A program made the position numbers and the translations under genes. A stretch of DNA of 52,422 nt. Source: Candidatus Woesearchaeota archaeon (GTDB lineage: Archaea > Nanobdellota > Nanobdellia > Woesearchaeales > B54-G15). Position 1 is the stretch's first letter. Each line of letters starts with the position of its first letter. This document shows, piece by piece, positions 19,223 to 41,052 of the stretch. Below the pieces are notes generated by a model that was not told the DNA's origin, searched no databases, and was given only the letters and a program-made list of their open reading frames with translations. The DNA lies in contig QMQQ01000001.1 in assembly GCA_003648985.1 (NCBI GenBank), forward strand, positions 1 through 52,422, given 5' to 3'.

Positions 19223-20193
19223 GCCATGCATAAGTAGAGGCTTGGGCTGTTGGGAGCTGCATGCTGAACGCCTCGCCGAAGCTCGGCGCTTACACATCAG
19301 CTCCATCAACCTCCTGTTTTAAGGAGGGCCCAAAAGGTGCCTCTTTTTGAGGAGGGCTTCGTCCTTAGATGCCTTCAGGACTTATCCCTATGGCGCGTGG
19401 CTGCCCGGATTTGCCCTGTCGGACATCCGGTAGACCAGAGGCGCCGAAAGCTCGTTCCTCTCGTACTAGAGCTTCCTTCCTCTCAGGCACCCAACATCCC
19501 CAGTAGATATCAAACAAACTGCCTCACAGCGTTCTGAACCCAGCTCATGATCCCTTTTGATCGGTGAACACCCGCACCCTTGGCTCCTTCTGCAGAGCCA
19601 GGATAGGAAAAGCCGACATCGAAGTAGCAAGCCGCGCCGTCGATGTGAGCTCTCGGGCGCGACGACTCAGTTATCCCCGGGGTAACTTTTTGGTCATCCC
19701 AGGGCCCCACCAAGGGGCACACTGAGGTTCGCTAGGCCAGCATTTCTGCCCTGCGTTCTATCTTAGTAAGAACACAGTCAGGCCAGCTTTTGCCCTTGCA
19801 CTCTACCCCGGATTTCTAACCCGGGTGAGCTGACCTTTGGGCCCCGCTGATATCTTTTCAGCGGGGTGCCGCCCCAGCCAAACTGTCCACCTACCGGTGT
19901 CCTTCCTTTCGGAAGTAAGCAGCACAAACAGTGAAGGGTGGTGTTACATTGGCGCCTAAGATGCTGTCCAAAAACAGCATCCTCAAACAGCTCCCACCTA
20001 CACTATGCAACACTGCTTGCACTGCAGCGGCAGGCTACAGTAAAGTTCCACGGGGTCTTCGCTTCCCACTGGGGATCCCAGGCATTTGCACCTGGCAGGG
20101 TGTTCGGCGGGATCCGGCTTGGGACAGTGGCGACCTCGTTACGTCCTTCATGCAGGCCGGCATTCAACCGGCAAGGCATTTCGCTACCTTAAG

Positions 20194-20907
20194 CAGCTCG
20201 TAAGAGCCGGACCGTATCTTCATCTCCTTCATTAATCAGGAGATGCCCGGCGTACGGTCTCTGAGGATCCCATCAGAGGAAAAATTTCCTTGAGTTTGTA
20301 ACGTCGTTGTTTACCTTCCATGTTCATTTTATATGCCAGCTTTACTAAACGTTCAAAACCCTCGCGTGTTCTATGTTCCTTTCTTTCCATAGCTAAAATA
20401 ATTTCTCTGAACTTCTGATAATCGTTCCATTTTACTATTGGTTTATATTTGTCAAGGAAGTTAATTAATTTCTCTTTAAGTAATCTTCTGTTATCGATGA
20501 CAAACACTAAAAGATTTTTTTGGCCTGATTTTTCAATTATCCTTCCTGCATTTAGTGTTTTCTTCAGCAATTCTAGAACCACCCTGTTTTGTTTATGCTG
20601 TGTCAATGTAAATACTGGATCTAACACGTAACCGAATTTCGCTGTCTTTAGTTTTTTAATGCTTACTGAAAAGCAACCTTCTGCGTCTATGAATCCCAAC
20701 AAATAATATCTTAGGTATTTTCCTCTTTTTGGGATTCTGCTAAGCTCTATTATTCCATTATACTCCCATAAAGGCATTTTTCCACCTCCGATGGTTTCCT
20801 GCTGATTGTCATCATCGCTTCAGAATTTTTTCCTTGCTCAGGATTCTGAAGCTCAAACTTCCCAGCATATAGCCGGGTTTTACAACTCCCTTAGCCGCAT
20901 TTGGCTG
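20194..20907 (-). mobile_element. Group I-type intron in 23S rRNA (helix 69/70 region, near E. coli position about 1925), carrying a homing-endonuclease ORF
   Basis: The exons rejoin to the conserved GGGAGUAACUAUAACUCUC/UUAAGGUAGCGAAAUGCC. The U-1/omegaG boundaries, P1, P10 and the P3, P7-P3'-P8-P7'-P9 order are readable; see findings. Confidence 0.7.
20232..20777 (-). CDS. LAGLIDADG homing endonuclease (single-motif, I-CreI-like architecture), intron-encoded
   Basis: YYLLGFIDAEGCFSVSI is a single LAGLIDADG motif in a 181-aa protein. The ORF is AT-rich and embedded in GC-rich rRNA. Its last 9 codons run into the intron core helices. Confidence 0.9.
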   Translation of the reverse strand: MPLWEYNGIIELSRIPKRGKYLRYYLLGFIDAEGCFSVSIKKLKTAKFGYVLDPVFTLTQHKQNRVVLELLKKTLNAGRIIEKSGQKNLLVFVIDNRRLLKEKLINFLDKYKPIVKWNDYQKFREIILAMERKEHRTREGFERLVKLAYKMNMEGKQRRYKLKEIFPLMGSSETVRRASPD

Positions 20908-21726
20908 AGAGTTATAGTTACTCCCGCCGTTTACCGGTCCTTAACCTCCTTGGACAGAGGGTTCGGATACCGGCACCGGGCAGGCGTCACCGACCATACA
21001 CACCTTTGCAGGCTTGCGGTCGGATGCGTTTTTGTTAAACAGTCGGGCCACCCTTGTCACTGCGCCCTGCTTTCGCATCTCGGGGACACGAAAGCAGGGA
21101 CCCCTTCTACCGAAGATACAGGGCTAATTTGCCGATTTCCCTAAGCCGGATTAACCCTTCACGCCTTAGCCTTCTCAGCTAGGGGCACCTGTGCTGGTTC
21201 TGGGTACGGTTGCCGAGGATTTTTTCTTGCTCCTTTTTCAGGGGCTCCAGGAATCAGCTGAATCCTGCATAACAGGACTATTCCCAGGTTTACTCTGGTT
21301 CTCTGCATTACGCAACTCCCCAGAGTTATCCTGGTTAACATAGCAGACAAGCTATGTCAGCTTAACCTGAAGCGTCAGGAGCAAGACTTGCGTTGCCGCG
21401 CATACCTCGGCAGTAGGCGAATGTTAACGCCTTTCCCTTTCCCTGCTGTCCTGTTAGGAAGCAGGTTAGGACCGACTAACCCTTGGCTGATCGGCATTGC
21501 CAAGGAACCCTTGCCCTTTCGGCGGTGCCGATTCTCACGGCACTAAGATCCTACTACCGCCAGGATTCTCATTCCTACGAGGTCCACTCTCTCTTGCGAG
21601 AAAGCTTCTGCCCTCGCAGGACGCCCGCCTACCACACAGCCGAAGCTGATCTGCAGTATCGGTGACCAGCTTAACCCCGTCCATTTTCGGGACCCGCGAC
21701 CTCGACGGGTAAGCTGTTACGCACTT

Positions 21727-21758
<32 letters not shown>

Positions 21759-22384
21759 CCGCTGTCTCAGGCCGCGGACACCCTTCACCCTTTAATACTT
21801 AGCTGGCACTTTGGGACCTTAACTGCAGTCTGGGTTGTTCCCCTCTCGGAGCTCAAGTTTACCCCGAGCCCCTGTTTCCTTGCTTCTACGGTGCTGAAGC
21901 ATTCGGAGTTGGACAAGGAGGCGATCCTTTGCAGAACCCACACTCCCAATCCGTAGCTCTACCACTTCAGCTACCTCTGCAAGGACTTGACTACGGCCAA
22001 TTTCGGCGGGAACCAGCTATCACCAGGCTCGATTGGCTTTTTACCCCTACTCCCAGGTCATCCGAACGCTTGCCCGCAGCACCGGTTCGGACCTTCACCT
22101 TCTGCTAAGAAGGCTTCATCCTACCCAGGAGTAGATCGCCCGGTTTCGGGTCGTAGCTGAGTGACTTGAGGCCCTTTCAAACCTCGCCCCTTGCAGCAAA
22201 AGCTGCTGCGGGCTTTTTGCTTTCGCTATGGGTATTGTCTGCACAAGACATTACCCTCGCCACTCAACTACACTCCCTGGCCCGTTATTCGAAACGGACA
22301 GTGCAACTTCTCAGCAAAAGCTGAAAAGCCGCACCTTCCTGTTGCTGTTAGGTTTCAGGCTCTTTTCACTCTCCGGCAAGAGTT

Positions 22385-22422
<38 letters not shown>

Positions 22423-22981
22423 GCTCTATGAGTATTTAGGGTTGGATGTTGGTGGCACCCAGCTTCCTGCCTAGTATCCAGTAGACAGTACTCAGGAATT
22501 GCCCGACTTCTCTTTGAGTTACTCCTACGGGGCTTTCACCCTCTATGGCGTCCCATTCCAGGGAACTTCGGATTTCCCAAAGAGAAGCCATGCGGGCAAT
22601 CCACCACACCACATCGCTATTCGCATTGCTGCGAACAGCTTCGGTTTGCCCTGTGCCCCTTTCATTCGCCATTACTCAGGGCATCCCTGTTGGTTTCTTT
22701 TCCTGCCGGTACTAAGATGTTTCAATTCCCGGCGTTCCTGATCCTTTCGGATCATTCCTTAGCGGAATGCGAAGTCGCATTCAGGAATCCTCGGTTCTAA
22801 GCCTGCGTGCGGCTCGCCGAGGCTTATCGCAGCTTGCCACGCCCTTCATCAGCTATAGAGCCAAGCCATCCACCTAACAGCTTCTTGCCTCTACCTATGC
22901 ATGGCCTCATCAACATAATGTCTTGGCCCTTTGTTCAGGATTGCAAAATCCTGAACTGCATCTAAAGTAAAACAATGAATA

Positions 22982-23104
22982 TGGACCCGTCGGGATTTTC
23001 GGTAGAGCTTTCGAACCCGAGGCCTCCGCCTGTCTTGCCTGAGTAAGCAAGCTCTTGCCCGCAAATTGCAAGGGCGACGCTCTACCAGGCTGAGCTACGG
23101 GCCC
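22982..23104 (-). tRNA. tRNA-Ala(UGC) in the 16S-23S spacer, with two introns (35 nt at 37/38, 14 nt in the T-loop at about 59/60)
   Basis: The reverse complement reads GGGCCCG-TA-GCTC..GAGC-G-TCGCC-CTTGCA[35 nt]A-GGCGG-AGGCC-TCGGG-TTCGAA[14 nt]T-CCCGA-CGGGTCC-A. The G3:U70 Ala identity pair is present. The mature length is 74 nt. Confidence 0.85.
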
Positions 23105-23151: not shown

Positions 23152-24633
<1,482 letters not shown>

Positions 24634-29264: not shown

Positions 29265-29370
29265 TGGGCCCGCGGGGATTTGAACCCCGGACCTCCGGTT
29301 AGCCTAGACCCCTCTGTATAGAGCACGGCCATATAAGACCGGCGCTCTAACCAGGCTAAGCTACGGGCCC
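29265..29370 (-). tRNA. tRNA-Ile(UAU) with a 31-nt canonical (37/38) intron
   Basis: The reverse complement reads GGGCCCG-TA-GCTT..GAGC-G-CCGGT-CTTATA[31 nt]A-ACCGG-AGGTC-CGGGG-TTCAAAT-CCCCG-CGGGCCC-A. A BHB can be drawn: CTTA pairs with TAGG, with bulges TA|T and CT|A. Confidence 0.85.
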
Positions 29371-39655: not shown

Positions 39656-41052
39656 ATTATGCTAAGATTGGCTTTAAATGCGGTCTGGAAATACATCAAC
39701 AGCTTGAAGGAAAAAAACTCTTTTGCCAATGCAGTACTGCCAATGTTCAACTAAAACCAGATATTTTTGCTGAAAGAAAACTAAGAGCTGTTGTTGGTGA
39801 AACAGGAATTGTTGATAAGGCAGCTGCTTTTGAAGCTGCAAAGGGAAAACTGTTTTTGTATAAGGCACATAGTTCTGATTGCTGCTTAGTTGAGCTAGAT
39901 GAAGAGCCACCGCATCCAATAAATCCTGATGCTGTAAAGGTTGCTGTTACAGTAGCTAAACTTCTCAATGCAAAGCTCGTTGACGAGATTCAGGTGATGA
40001 GAAAGACAGTGATAGATGGAAGTAATGTTACAGGATTTCAAAGAACAGCACTCGTTGCGCTTAATGGCTGGATTGAAACAAGCAGGGGAAAGGTTAGCAT
40101 TCCTACAATTTGCCTTGAGGAAGAAGCTGCTCAGAAAATCGAAGAAAGCGAAAAAACAACTACATACAAGCTTGATAGGCTTGGAATTCCATTGATAGAA
40201 ATAGCAACAGGCCCTGAAATCAAAGATCCGGAACATGCAAAAGAGGTTGCTGAAAAGCTCGGCTTGATTCTGAGAAGTGTAAAAGGCGTTAAAAGAGGCA
40301 TAGGAACTATAAGACAGGATGTAAATCTTTCGATAAAAGGTAGGGCGAGGGTTGAGATAAAGGGATTTCAGGATTTAGAAAGTATTCCAAAAATCATTGA
40401 ATATGAGGTTAGGAGATTGCTTTCGTTGAAGGAAAGAAACGAACCAGAAGTAAGAAAGGCAAATCCTGATGGAACAACTTCCTTTTTAAGGCCGATGCCA
40501 GGTGCAGCAAGGCTTTATCCTGAAACTGATATTCCTCCATTCAAGATTGATTTTGAGGTTGAGCTGCCTGAATTGATAGAAGAGAAAATAAAGAGGTATG
40601 AAAAACTCGGATTAGATAGAGATTTGGCAAAAGCTATTGCTAAGTCTAAAAAGAGTAAATTATTTGATGCTGCTTTAGAAAAGACAAAGTTAAAACCGGG
40701 CTTTGTTGCTGAAGTTATATTTTCCAAACCAAAAGAATTGCAGAGGGAAGATGTTGCAGTTGAAAAAATAAGCGAAGAAGTATTTTTGAAATTGCTTGGA
40801 TATTTAGCTGAAGAAAAAATAGCGAAGGAAAGCGTTGAGCTTGTGCTGAAGGATGCTGCACAAGAAAAGCTTGACTTCAAGAAATACTTTGTTCTGAGCG
40901 ATGCTGAGTTAAAAAAAGAATTGAAAAGGATTGTAGATGCAAATCCAGGACTGCCTTTCAAAGCGTTAATAGGAAAAGCAATGCAGAAGTTAAGGGGAAA
41001 AGCGAGCGGAAGAAAAATAGCCGAGTTCCTAAAAGAACTTCTTAAAAGATAA
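39637..41052 (+). CDS. gatE: Glu-tRNA(Gln) amidotransferase subunit E (short form, 471 aa)
   Basis: A TTG start follows a GAGAGGTGAGG RBS. Motifs: YAKIGFKCGLEIHQQL, VIDGSNVTGFQRTALVA, LDRLGIPLIEIATGPE, RGIGTIRQDVNLSI. Confidence 0.88.
   Translation: MGKEKIDYAKIGFKCGLEIHQQLEGKKLFCQCSTANVQLKPDIFAERKLRAVVGETGIVDKAAAFEAAKGKLFLYKAHSSDCCLVELDEEPPHPINPDAVKVAVTVAKLLNAKLVDEIQVMRKTVIDGSNVTGFQRTALVALNGWIETSRGKVSIPTICLEEEAAQKIEESEKTTTYKLDRLGIPLIEIATGPEIKDPEHAKEVAEKLGLILRSVKGVKRGIGTIRQDVNLSIKGRARVEIKGFQDLESIPKIIEYEVRRLLSLKERNEPEVRKANPDGTTSFLRPMPGAARLYPETDIPPFKIDFEVELPELIEEKIKRYEKLGLDRDLAKAIAKSKKSKLFDAALEKTKLKPGFVAEVIFSKPKELQREDVAVEKISEEVFLKLLGYLAEEKIAKESVELVLKDAAQEKLDFKKYFVLSDAELKKELKRIVDANPGLPFKALIGKAMQKLRGKASGRKIAEFLKELLKR

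What the first reader, a model, noticed from the sequence alone, without database searches (positions are those of the whole stretch)
20194..20907. The 23S rRNA intron of this archaeon reads as a group I ribozyme, not a BHB intron
Comparison with the conserved archaeal sequence GUAACUAUAACUCUC/UUAAGGUAGCGAAAUGCC leaves a 714-nt insert. Because a C is repeated at the junction, the 5' exon can end in U (AACUCU|C) and the intron can end in G (...GAGCUG|CUUAAGG), which is the group I rule. Intron nt 19-24 (GGAGUU) pair with the exon end AACUCU, giving a U.G pair at the splice site (P1). The four nt just upstream (UAAG) pair with the first exon-2 nt CUUA (P10). The 3' part shows the canonical strand order GACCGUA (P7), GCCGGG (P3'), CAUCUCC..GGAGAUG (P8), UACGGUC (P7'), GCUC-UUAC-GAGC (P9), then omegaG. 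The P3 partner CCCGGC lies near the 5' end. The LAGLIDADG ORF ends inside P7/P3'/P8. I could not draw a bulge-helix-bulge across the two junctions. The same primary transcript would therefore need a self-splicing intron as well as endonuclease-dependent BHB cuts (16S and 23S processing stems, two tRNA-Ala introns). Group I introns are rarely annotated in archaeal genomes.
Basis: partly seen in the sequence, partly recalled or inferred. Interest (0 to 1): 0.7.

Follow-up and report, generated by a model that had tools for sequence, protein, structure and literature searches.

The report
Group I intron in archaeal 23S rRNA
The 714-base insert in this archaeon's 23S rRNA gene is a genuine group I (self-splicing type) intron carrying a homing-endonuclease gene, but it belongs to a widespread family already described in archaea in 2018, so it is a correct but ordinary find.

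Summary
The 23S rRNA gene lies on the minus strand and carries a 714-nt insert (window 20907..20194) at E. coli position L1923.

The insert has the full group I layout: P1 with a U.G pair at the 5' splice site, the P3/P7 pseudoknot, P4-P5, P6, P8, P9 and a terminal G. A 181-aa LAGLIDADG_1 endonuclease gene sits in the P6 loop and runs through P7/P3' into the P8 loop.

- **Family:** I retrieved 80 related loci, and 43 could be mapped at both exon junctions, all to the same rRNA site. Two of the 80 are the published archaeal introns IB4.28 and IB4.18 of Nawrocki et al. 2018.
- **Covariation:** In an ORF-deleted alignment of 30 introns, 93% of cells pair, against 39-47% in slid controls. Thirty of 49 pairs show compensatory changes. 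The guide sequence tracks exon differences.
- **Covariance models:** Models built without the window and without exon sequence hit only here, at E 2e-23 and 5e-14.
- **BHB rival:** No bulge-helix-bulge can be drawn across the junctions, while tRNA introns in the same window score perfectly.
- **Rfam:** The generic model fails (16.7 bits against a threshold of 50). The 2018 paper reports the same insensitivity for its archaeal introns.

Self-splicing itself remains untested.

The parts
20908..20913 (-). Last six bases of the 5' exon (AACUCU, 23S helix 69 3' strand). This is the exon strand of P1, and U at 20908 is the -1 U of the splice-site U.G pair.
   Evidence: P1 is 98.6% paired across 30 introns, and the U.G pair is present in 30 of 30.
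20194..20907 (-). The whole intron, 714 nt, inserted at E. coli LSU position 1923.
   Evidence: Rfam LSU alignment. Exon mapping. Boundaries coincide with the published IB4.28 and IB4.18.
20884..20890 (-). Internal guide sequence, the 3' strand of P1 (GGGAGUU, intron nt 18-24).
   Evidence: It covaries with the exon: GACCCU/GGGGGUC, GACUCU/GGGAGUC, AACCCU/GGGGGUU, and bacterial AACGGU/GGGCCGUU.
20890..20893 (-). Proposed P10 guide UAAG, complementary to the first four bases of exon 2 (CUUA, 20193..20190).
   Evidence: The sequence is present. Only AG/CU is conserved in the family and there is no covariation.
20872..20877 (-). P3 5' strand, CCCGGC.
   Evidence: 100% paired with 20251..20246 across 30 introns. 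Five of six pairs show compensatory changes.
20800..20867 (-). P4-P5-P5a-P5b domain. P4 is UGCUGG/UCAGCA. P5b is a hairpin, CCU-GAGCA-AGG.
   Evidence: RNAalifold consensus of 32 relatives: 18 of 27 pairs have compensatory changes. CM R1 scores 104.1 bits, E 2e-23. The MFE recovers the same fold, z -4.31.
20785..20799 (-). P6 (GG) and the P6a 5' strand (CCAUCGGAGG). It contains the GGAGGUG Shine-Dalgarno-like stretch 7 nt upstream of the endonuclease AUG.
   Evidence: It pairs with 20279..20270 and 20266..20265. Nine of ten P6a pairs show compensatory changes. The close relative L085 has compensating changes.
20232..20777 (-). Homing endonuclease gene, 181 aa, with a single LAGLIDADG_1 domain. 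It lies in the P6 loop, and its last 15 codons and stop codon overlap P6', J6/7, P7, P3' and P8.
   Evidence: The conserved C-terminal GSSETxR is encoded by J6/7-P7.
20265..20279 (-). P6a 3' strand (CCUCUGAUGG), GAU, and P6 CC.
20253..20259 (-). P7 5' strand GACCGUA, preceded by the conserved J6/7 UCAGA.
   Evidence: 98.6% paired with 20216..20210. The window and L085 carry G-C where the others have A-U.
20246..20251 (-). P3 3' strand, GCCGGG.
20221..20245 (-). P8 hairpin, CAUCUCC-loop-GGAGAUG. The endonuclease stop codon UAA is at 20234..20232, in the loop.
   Evidence: All seven pairs covary in the family. MFE fold.
20210..20220 (-). J8/7 (AAGA) and the P7 3' strand UACGGUC.
   Evidence: The GAUAYRGUCC block is near-invariant in the family.
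20194..20208 (-). P9 hairpin GGCUC-UUAC-GAGCU, followed by the terminal G (omega G, 20194).
   Evidence: P9 is 96.6% paired and three of five pairs covary. The intron ends in G in all 44 family members. The CM R2 match ends exactly at 20194.

Best explanation
The insert is a mobile group I intron of the family that Nawrocki et al. classed as subtype IB4, sitting at 23S rRNA position L1923 (3' side of helix 69) in a DPANN-type archaeal MAG labelled Candidatus Woesearchaeota.

Inferred mechanism, following the established group I pathway:
1. The pre-rRNA folds so that the exon end AACUCU pairs with the intron guide GGGAGUU (P1).
2. An external guanosine bound in P7 attacks after the wobble-paired U (20908).
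3. The terminal G (20194) then replaces it in the P7 pocket.
4. The freed exon 3'-OH attacks after that G and joins ...AACUCU to CUUAAGG.

The P6 loop carries a single-domain LAGLIDADG endonuclease gene. The enzyme presumably acts as a homodimer, cuts intron-less 23S rDNA at this site, and so spreads the intron by homing. The gene's ribosome-binding stretch lies in P6a, and its last 15 codons and stop codon double as ribozyme core (P6', J6/7, P7, P3', P8).

Shown here: the fold, its covariation, homology to published archaeal group I introns, the insertion site, and the absence of a BHB motif. Inferred: catalysis, homing, and any interplay between translation and folding.
For: - **Anatomy:** The layout is confirmed at the stated coordinates.
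- **Family:** Of 80 endonuclease-related loci, 43 could be mapped at both exon junctions, and all 43 carry the insert at the identical rRNA site. Exon -1 is U and the intron ends in G in all 44 introns, counting the window's. Nearly all 80 loci carry the P3/P4, J6/7-P7 and P7' core motifs.
- **Covariation:** On a plain MAFFT alignment of 30 ORF-deleted introns, 93.0% of cells pair, against 39-47% when the partners are slid. Thirty of 49 pairs have compensatory changes. None of 500 shuffles reaches the observed values.
- **Guide sequence:** It tracks natural exon variation, including the bacterial AACGGU/GCCGUU.
- **P4-P5 domain:** 18 of 27 consensus pairs are compensatory.
- **Covariance models:** Models built from 32 relatives, including the published IB4.28 and IB4.18 and containing no window and no exon sequence, hit only this site. 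R1 scores 104.1 bits, E 2e-23. R2 scores 62.6 bits, E 4.8e-14, and ends exactly at the terminal G.
- **Single-sequence folds:** They recover the same helices, z -4.3 and -3.75.
- **Published boundaries:** The published LSU/1923 intron boundaries coincide with mine (PMC6125680 Table 1).
- **Endonuclease:** It is LAGLIDADG_1 and is related to I-CeuI, the I-OnuI/I-SmaMI family and an archaeal rRNA-intron enzyme.
- **BHB test:** Negative here and in 43 of 43 relatives. Positive for tRNA controls.
Against: - The Rfam RF00028 model gives only 16.7 bits, E 0.14, against a threshold of 50. The same model also found none of the published archaeal introns (PMC6125680), so this weighs little.
- No P2 helix is evident.
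- P10 is short and unsupported by covariation.
- The G-binding pair in P7 cannot be identified by sequence alone.
- No RNA data or splicing assay exists for this or, as far as the papers I read show, for any archaeal group I intron.
- The subtype label IB4 rests on homology to introns that others classified. I could not run the GISSD IB4 model.
Confidence: 0.9

Rival explanations
1. It is a conventional archaeal bulge-helix-bulge intron carrying a LAGLIDADG gene, like the rRNA introns of Desulfurococcus, Pyrobaculum or Aeropyrum. It would be cut out by the tRNA splicing endonuclease and ligated by RtcB.
For: - The host is an archaeon whose transcripts do use BHB splicing: the spacer tRNA-Ala and a tRNA(UAU) have canonical BHB introns.
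- The endonuclease is 51% identical to a protein that UniRef names I-ApeII, and it matches an archaeal rRNA-intron endonuclease structure, 3e54.
- The Rfam group I model is below threshold.
Against: - With either placement of the ambiguous C, the central 4-bp helix has only 1-2 pairs and the flanking helices 0-2 pairs.
- No solution with a full central helix exists even with bulges of 2-5 nt and any cleavage offset. The same script scores the tRNA introns 4/5/4.
- None of 43 homologous introns has a BHB.
- The locus of the 'I-ApeII'-named protein itself carries the same group I core.
- The covariation and the CM hits have no explanation under this model.
Confidence: 0.02
2. It is a group I-derived intron that has lost autonomous catalysis. 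It would need its own LAGLIDADG protein acting as a maturase, or a host protein, to fold and splice.
For: - Some LAGLIDADG proteins double as maturases for their group I introns. This is established for fungal mitochondrial enzymes such as I-AniI (from my own knowledge).
- P10 is weak and no P2 is seen.
- The ORF overlaps the core, so RNA and protein are tightly coupled.
Against: - All core helices are intact, and compensatory changes are maintained even between the window and its 90%-identical relative L085.
- J6/7, J8/7 and J3/4 are near-invariant.
- Nothing in the sequence indicates decay.
Confidence: 0.07
3. The insert is not removed at all. Either this rRNA gene copy is inactive, or the insert is excised without ligation, giving a fragmented 23S rRNA.
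For: - An unspliced group I intron in 23S rRNA has been reported in a bacterium. The title is cited in PMC11270868 ref 28.
- No expression data are available here.
Against: - This is the only rRNA operon seen on the contig, and the flanking rRNA is full-length and scores 2661.7 bits.
- Position 1923 lies in helix 69 at the subunit interface, so an unspliced insert of 714 nt would be expected to be harmful (inference).
- Purifying selection on the ribozyme helices across hundreds of species argues for function.
Confidence: 0.01

Closest known systems
Archaeal group I introns of subtype IB4 at LSU/1923 (Nawrocki, Jones and Eddy 2018, NAR 46:7970; for example IB4.28 in NJDR01000009.1 and IB4.18 in MNVH01000001.1)
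   Same: - Same host gene, same insertion site and same boundaries.
- Same helix order, and the endonuclease gene lies in the same place.
- The endonucleases are 48-53% identical.
- Covariance models trained on a set that includes them hit the window at E 2e-23 and 5e-14.
- BHB introns also occur in the same transcript.
   Different: - The host bin is different (a Woesearchaeota-labelled Guaymas-type MAG). The 2018 list has LSU/1923 introns in other phyla and has Woesearchaeota introns at LSU/1931 and 2593.
- The window has local variants: a longer P1 loop with its own small hairpin, a G-C pair in P7 where the others have A-U, and a 4-bp P10.
- None of these differences changes the kind.
Chlamydomonas chloroplast LSU intron encoding I-CeuI, and bacterial L1923 introns
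   Same: - I-CeuI is a single-motif, homodimeric LAGLIDADG enzyme and matches the window protein (2ex5, E 1e-18).
- Its recognition sequence, TAACTATAACGGTCCTAAGGTAGCGAA, is this same stretch of 23S rDNA. This comes from my own knowledge and was not tested here.
- Bacterial loci in Ignavibacteria, Chlorobi, Actinomycetota and cyanobacteria carry the same intron family at the same site.
   Different: - The bacterial and DPANN versions have a longer P9 region with extra hairpins and a guide sequence adapted to AACGGU.
- I-CeuI is a more distant relative than the I-OnuI/I-SmaMI family halves.
Archaeal BHB rRNA introns with LAGLIDADG genes (for example those encoding I-DmoI, I-PorI, I-ApeI)
   Same: They are inserts in archaeal rRNA genes that carry LAGLIDADG homing endonuclease genes. 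The endonuclease family is related (3e54 at E 4e-31).
   Different: The defining BHB motif at the exon-intron junctions is absent here, and a covarying ribozyme core is present.

Membership tests
Group I intron | The 5' exon ends in U, which forms a U.G wobble with an internal guide sequence (P1). | tested here: met
   U.G is present in 30 of 30 introns. P1 is 98.6% paired, and the guide covaries with exon variants.
Group I intron | The intron ends in G (omega G). | tested here: met
   G is present in all 44 family members. The CM R2 match ends on it at 20194.
Group I intron | Conserved core in the order P3-P4-P5-P4'-P6-P6'-P7-P3'-P8-P7'-P9, with a P3/P7 pseudoknot supported by covariation. 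| tested here: met
   Of 49 pairs, 93% of cells pair against 39-47% when slid, and 30 pairs are compensatory. In the P4-P5 domain, 18 of 27 pairs are compensatory.
Group I intron | Score at or above the Rfam RF00028 gathering threshold. | tested here: not met
   16.7 bits against 50, E 0.14. The same model found no significant archaeal hit in the 2018 study, although subtype models did (PMC6125680). This is a sensitivity limit of the model, and the 546-nt ORF splits the core.
Group I intron | Guanosine-binding site in P7. | tested here: inconclusive
   P7 is present with invariant G-C and C-G pairs. The binding pair cannot be assigned from sequence.
Group I intron | Guanosine-initiated self-splicing. 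| not testable with these tools
   This needs an in vitro transcript with GTP and Mg2+.
Archaeal IB4 introns at LSU/1923 (Nawrocki et al. 2018) | Insertion after E. coli U1923 of 23S rRNA. | tested here: met
   The published coordinates of IB4.28 and IB4.18 map to the same junctions as the window intron (PMC6125680 Table 1).
Archaeal IB4 introns at LSU/1923 (Nawrocki et al. 2018) | Sequence and structure homology to published members. | tested here: met
   CMs from 32 relatives, including both published introns, give E 2e-23 and 4.8e-14.
Archaeal IB4 introns at LSU/1923 (Nawrocki et al. 2018) | Significant hit to the GISSD IB4 subtype covariance model. | not testable with these tools
   The GISSD model is not available here. 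The subtype is inherited from the homologs.
Archaeal BHB intron | An hBHBh' motif: two 3-nt bulges holding the splice sites, separated by a 4-bp helix. | tested here: not met
   H is 1-2 of 4, h is 0-2 and h' is 0. There is no relaxed solution either. tRNA controls score 4/5/4.
LAGLIDADG homing endonuclease (single-motif, homodimeric type) | One LAGLIDADG_1 domain in a protein of about 170-220 aa. | tested here: met
   PF00961 at E 4.7e-19, residues 26-126 of 181. The protein aligns to each half of two-domain enzymes and to the single-domain 3e54 and I-CeuI.
LAGLIDADG homing endonuclease (single-motif, homodimeric type) | Cleavage of the intron-less target site. | not testable with these tools
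   This needs a biochemical assay.

The most novel reading that the evidence does not exclude
The intron may work as a coupled RNA-protein switch. The endonuclease's ribosome-binding site sits in P6a. Its last 15 codons and stop codon are the ribozyme's P6', J6/7, P7, P3' and P8. Translation and ribozyme folding would then be mutually exclusive, so endonuclease synthesis could occur only from unfolded precursor or excised intron. The family-wide conserved C-terminal GSSETxR would be a by-product of the RNA core. This family is now abundant across many archaeal phyla and several bacterial phyla, so it would be the natural first system for showing self-splicing of an archaeal group I intron and for tracing cross-domain transfer.
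Probability: 0.3. Interest if true: 0.35.

Novelty: new member of a known kind. Interest (0 to 1): 0.2.

Why it matters
It adds one more well-supported example, in a Woesearchaeota-labelled MAG, to a class described in 2018. It also confirms that group I and BHB splicing coexist on one archaeal rRNA transcript.

There are two practical lessons:
- The generic Rfam group I model misses these introns when an endonuclease gene splits the core. Archaeal rRNA inserts should therefore not be assumed to be BHB introns by default.
- The endonuclease family gives easy access to hundreds of relatives (520 among GTDB species representatives). That is enough for a dedicated covariance model and for choosing a candidate for the first self-splicing assay.

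It does not change current understanding.

Tried and rejected
- **Rfam scans.** At gathering threshold there was no group I hit. At permissive threshold there was one sub-threshold hit (16.7 bits) that forces the whole model onto the 3' 245 nt. I did not treat it as evidence either way.
- **BHB reading.** It was tested with an explicit motif search calibrated on the window's own tRNA introns and rejected.
- **P10.** It was tested across the family. Only 2 bp are conserved and there is no compensation where exon 2 varies (CUC instead of CUU). I keep it as plausible but unsupported.
- **Spurious hairpin.** RNAalifold on the isolated 5' domain proposed a hairpin between the guide sequence and the P3 strand. 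This is an artefact of removing their true partners, so I left it out of the model.
- **A BHB-type contrast.** I looked for HEG relatives in BHB-type introns at the same site, in the Sulfolobales loci L053 and L060 and the 'I-ApeII' locus L081. All three carry the group I core.
- **Host species.** It was not found among GTDB representatives through the endonuclease (best 61% identity). Its identity came from an exact protein look-up instead.
- **Anchor errors.** First-pass regex anchors for the ORF-deleted constructs mis-anchored five loci. They were corrected before the alignment was made.
- **Weak CM hit.** The weak R1 hit at 40238..40325 (E 0.14) is noise.

Full report
**What is there.** Rfam places an archaeal LSU rRNA on the minus strand at 22897..19231 (2661.7 bits) and the SSU rRNA at 24632..23153. 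The LSU alignment around the finding shows a single large insert between ...GGGAGUAACUAUAACUCUC and GUAGCGAAAUGCC. One ORF fills most of it: 20777..20232, 181 aa. It has one LAGLIDADG_1 domain (PF00961, E 4.7e-19). Exact-sequence look-ups of five flanking proteins show the window is a 52,422-base contig of a MAG labelled Candidatus Woesearchaeota archaeon, for example RLE41122.1.

**The proposed check fails, for a known reason.** The generic Rfam group I model RF00028 gives no hit at its gathering score. At a permissive threshold it gives only 16.7 bits, E 0.14, against a threshold of 50. Nawrocki, Jones and Eddy (2018, PMC6125680) report that RF00028 found no significant archaeal hit. Subtype-specific models found 39 archaeal group I introns. 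Ten of those are IB4 introns at LSU/1923, most of them 680-760 nt long with LAGLIDADG genes.

**Relatives.** The endonuclease has 126 listed homologs. An alignment of 32 of them (A1) found 520 relatives among GTDB species representatives, of which 80 loci were fetched.
- The loci come from Micrarchaeota, Aenigmatarchaeota, Bathyarchaeia, Nitrososphaeria, Sulfolobales, Hadarchaeota, Thermoplasmata, Altiarchaeota, an Asgard MAG and other DPANN lineages. Several bacterial phyla are also represented.
- Two loci are published introns. L031 is NJDR01000009.1 (IB4.28) and L054 is MNVH01000001.1 (IB4.18).
- Mapping the window's exon flanks onto the loci located both junctions in 43 loci, always at exactly the window's site.
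- The published coordinates of IB4.28 and IB4.18 convert to the same junctions. This fixes the site as LSU/1923.
- In all 44 introns the exon ends in U and the intron ends in G.
- Nearly all 80 loci carry the conserved blocks GGCUAUAUGCUGG, CAGAGACYAUA and GAUAURGUCC around the endonuclease gene.

**Structure and covariation.** I removed the ORF from 30 introns, kept 12 exon bases on each side, and aligned them with MAFFT (A2). I then counted pairs for the structure read from the window: P1, P3, P4, P6, P6a, P7, P8 and P9.
- 93.0% of 1463 cells form standard pairs, against 39-47% when the 3' partners are slid by 1-3 columns.
- 30 of 49 pairs show changes on both sides.
- None of 500 shuffles reaches the observed value on any measure.
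- P3 is 100% paired and five of its six pairs covary.
- The splice-site U.G pair is present in 30 of 30.
- In P6a, nine of ten pairs covary.
- In P7, the window has G-C where the others have A-U.

The guide sequence follows the exon. The pairings are GACCCU/GGGGGUC, GACUCU/GGGAGUC, AACUCU/GGGAGUU (the window), AACCCU/GGGGGUU, GACGAU/GUUGUC in IB4.28, and AACGGU/GCCGUU in bacteria. RNAalifold on the 5' domain of 32 relatives gives P4, P5, P5a and a conserved P5b hairpin, with 18 of 27 pairs compensatory. A close relative (L085, endonuclease 90% identical) differs from the window by compensating changes in P6a, P8 and P9.

**Independent statistics.** I built two covariance models from 32 relatives. 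They include the two published introns and contain neither the window nor any exon sequence.
- The 5'-domain model hits the 52-kb window once: 104.1 bits, E 2e-23, at 20897..20794.
- The 3'-domain model hits once: 62.6 bits, E 4.8e-14, at 20266..20194, ending on the terminal G.
- Single-sequence folding of the window's two domains recovers the same helices, with z -4.31 and -3.75.

**The BHB rival.** I encoded the canonical motif: a 4-bp helix immediately 5' of each 3-nt bulge, with cleavage after the second bulge base. I calibrated it on a tRNA intron in the same window, which scores H=4, h=5, h'=4.
- The rRNA intron scores H=1-2, h=0-2, h'=0 for the two possible junction placements.
- It has no solution with a full central helix even with bulges of 2-5 nt and any cleavage offset.
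- None of 43 relatives has the motif either.
- The endonuclease does resemble enzymes of archaeal rRNA introns (3e54 at E 4e-31; a UniRef 'I-ApeII' name). However, the locus of that 'I-ApeII' protein also carries the same group I core at the same site.
- The endonuclease family therefore does not discriminate between the two readings. The RNA does.

**How it most likely works.** By the established group I pathway, P1 presents the U.G pair and guanosine bound in P7 attacks after U20908. The terminal G20194 then docks in the same pocket, and the exons are joined. The endonuclease presumably acts as a homodimer, as I-CeuI does (2ex5, E 1e-18). It would cut intron-less 23S rDNA and drive homing. 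Two coding-structure overlaps can be read directly from the sequence. The GGAGGUG stretch upstream of the AUG lies in the P6a 5' strand. The last 15 codons and stop codon of the ORF run through P6', J6/7, P7, P3' and into the P8 loop. This explains the family-wide C-terminal GSSETxR. Catalysis, homing and any translation-folding interplay are inferences.

**Weak points.** P10 is 4 bp in the window, but only AG/CU is conserved, and there is no compensation where exon 2 varies. No P2 is apparent. The G-binding pair cannot be assigned. The IB4 label is inherited from homologs, because the GISSD models are not available here. In the papers I searched I found no report of an experimental splicing assay for an archaeal group I intron. 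That is an absence in a limited library, not proof.

**Verdict.** The finding is a new member of a known kind: an LSU/1923 group I intron with a LAGLIDADG gene, as described for archaea in 2018. The family is now visibly very widespread. The coexistence of BHB and group I splicing on one transcript is real here, since the spacer tRNA-Ala has a canonical BHB intron, but it too was noted in 2018. Interest is low.

Noticed in passing
window 22982..23104 (minus strand), in the 16S-23S spacer: A tRNA-Ala(UGC) gene is interrupted twice. A 35-nt intron at 37/38 has a perfect BHB (H=4, h=5, h'=4). A 14-nt insert in the T-loop (AGCUCUACCGAAAA) has only a relaxed motif (H=4, h=5, h'=1). Neither ARAGORN nor Rfam at gathering threshold reported this gene.
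   Followed up: partly
window 29265..29370 (minus strand): An intron-containing tRNA reads as anticodon UAU (Ile) by my count, with a canonical BHB intron of 30 nt at 37/38. Rfam found it at 61.4 bits; ARAGORN did not. A UAU isoleucine tRNA is unusual in archaea and may relate to how this lineage decodes AUA.
   Followed up: partly
window 20232..20279 and the family alignment A1: The endonuclease's conserved C-terminal motif GSSETxR is encoded by the ribozyme's J6/7-P7 core. The Shine-Dalgarno-like GGAGGUG (20789..20783) lies largely in the P6a 5' strand. Protein and RNA constraints therefore overlap on the same bases.
   Followed up: partly
loci L056, L062-L065, L067, L069, L071, L072, L077, L080: Bacterial MAGs (Ignavibacteria, Chlorobi, Actinomycetota, Acidobacteriota, cyanobacteria, CPR, Thiomargarita) carry endonuclease homologs. 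Where both junctions could be mapped (L064, L065, L067, L069, L071, L072), the same intron family sits at the same 23S site, with the guide sequence adapted to the bacterial exon AACGGU and a longer P9 region. This suggests transfer between domains.
   Followed up: partly
locus L081 (ENA ERZ1669417 contig, endonuclease P0088): A protein that UniRef names 'Homing endonuclease I-ApeII' (Q4LEH7, Thermoproteati) is encoded inside a group I-type intron at LSU/1923, not a BHB intron. The name may give a misleading impression of the intron type.
   Followed up: partly
loci L053 and L060 (uncultured Sulfolobales MAGs): Members of the Sulfolobales, a group known for BHB rRNA introns, carry the full group I core of this family at LSU/1923.
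   Followed up: partly
locus L079 (Pacearchaeota), intron of 1149 nt: This family member has a further insert of about 400 nt in the P9 region, possibly a second ORF.
   Followed up: no
loci L006, L010, L016, L030, L037, L057 and others: In several loci the downstream exon match starts only at exon position 9-18 and lies 50-150 nt further on. This suggests a second insert a few bases downstream, possibly at LSU/1931, in the same gene.
   Followed up: no
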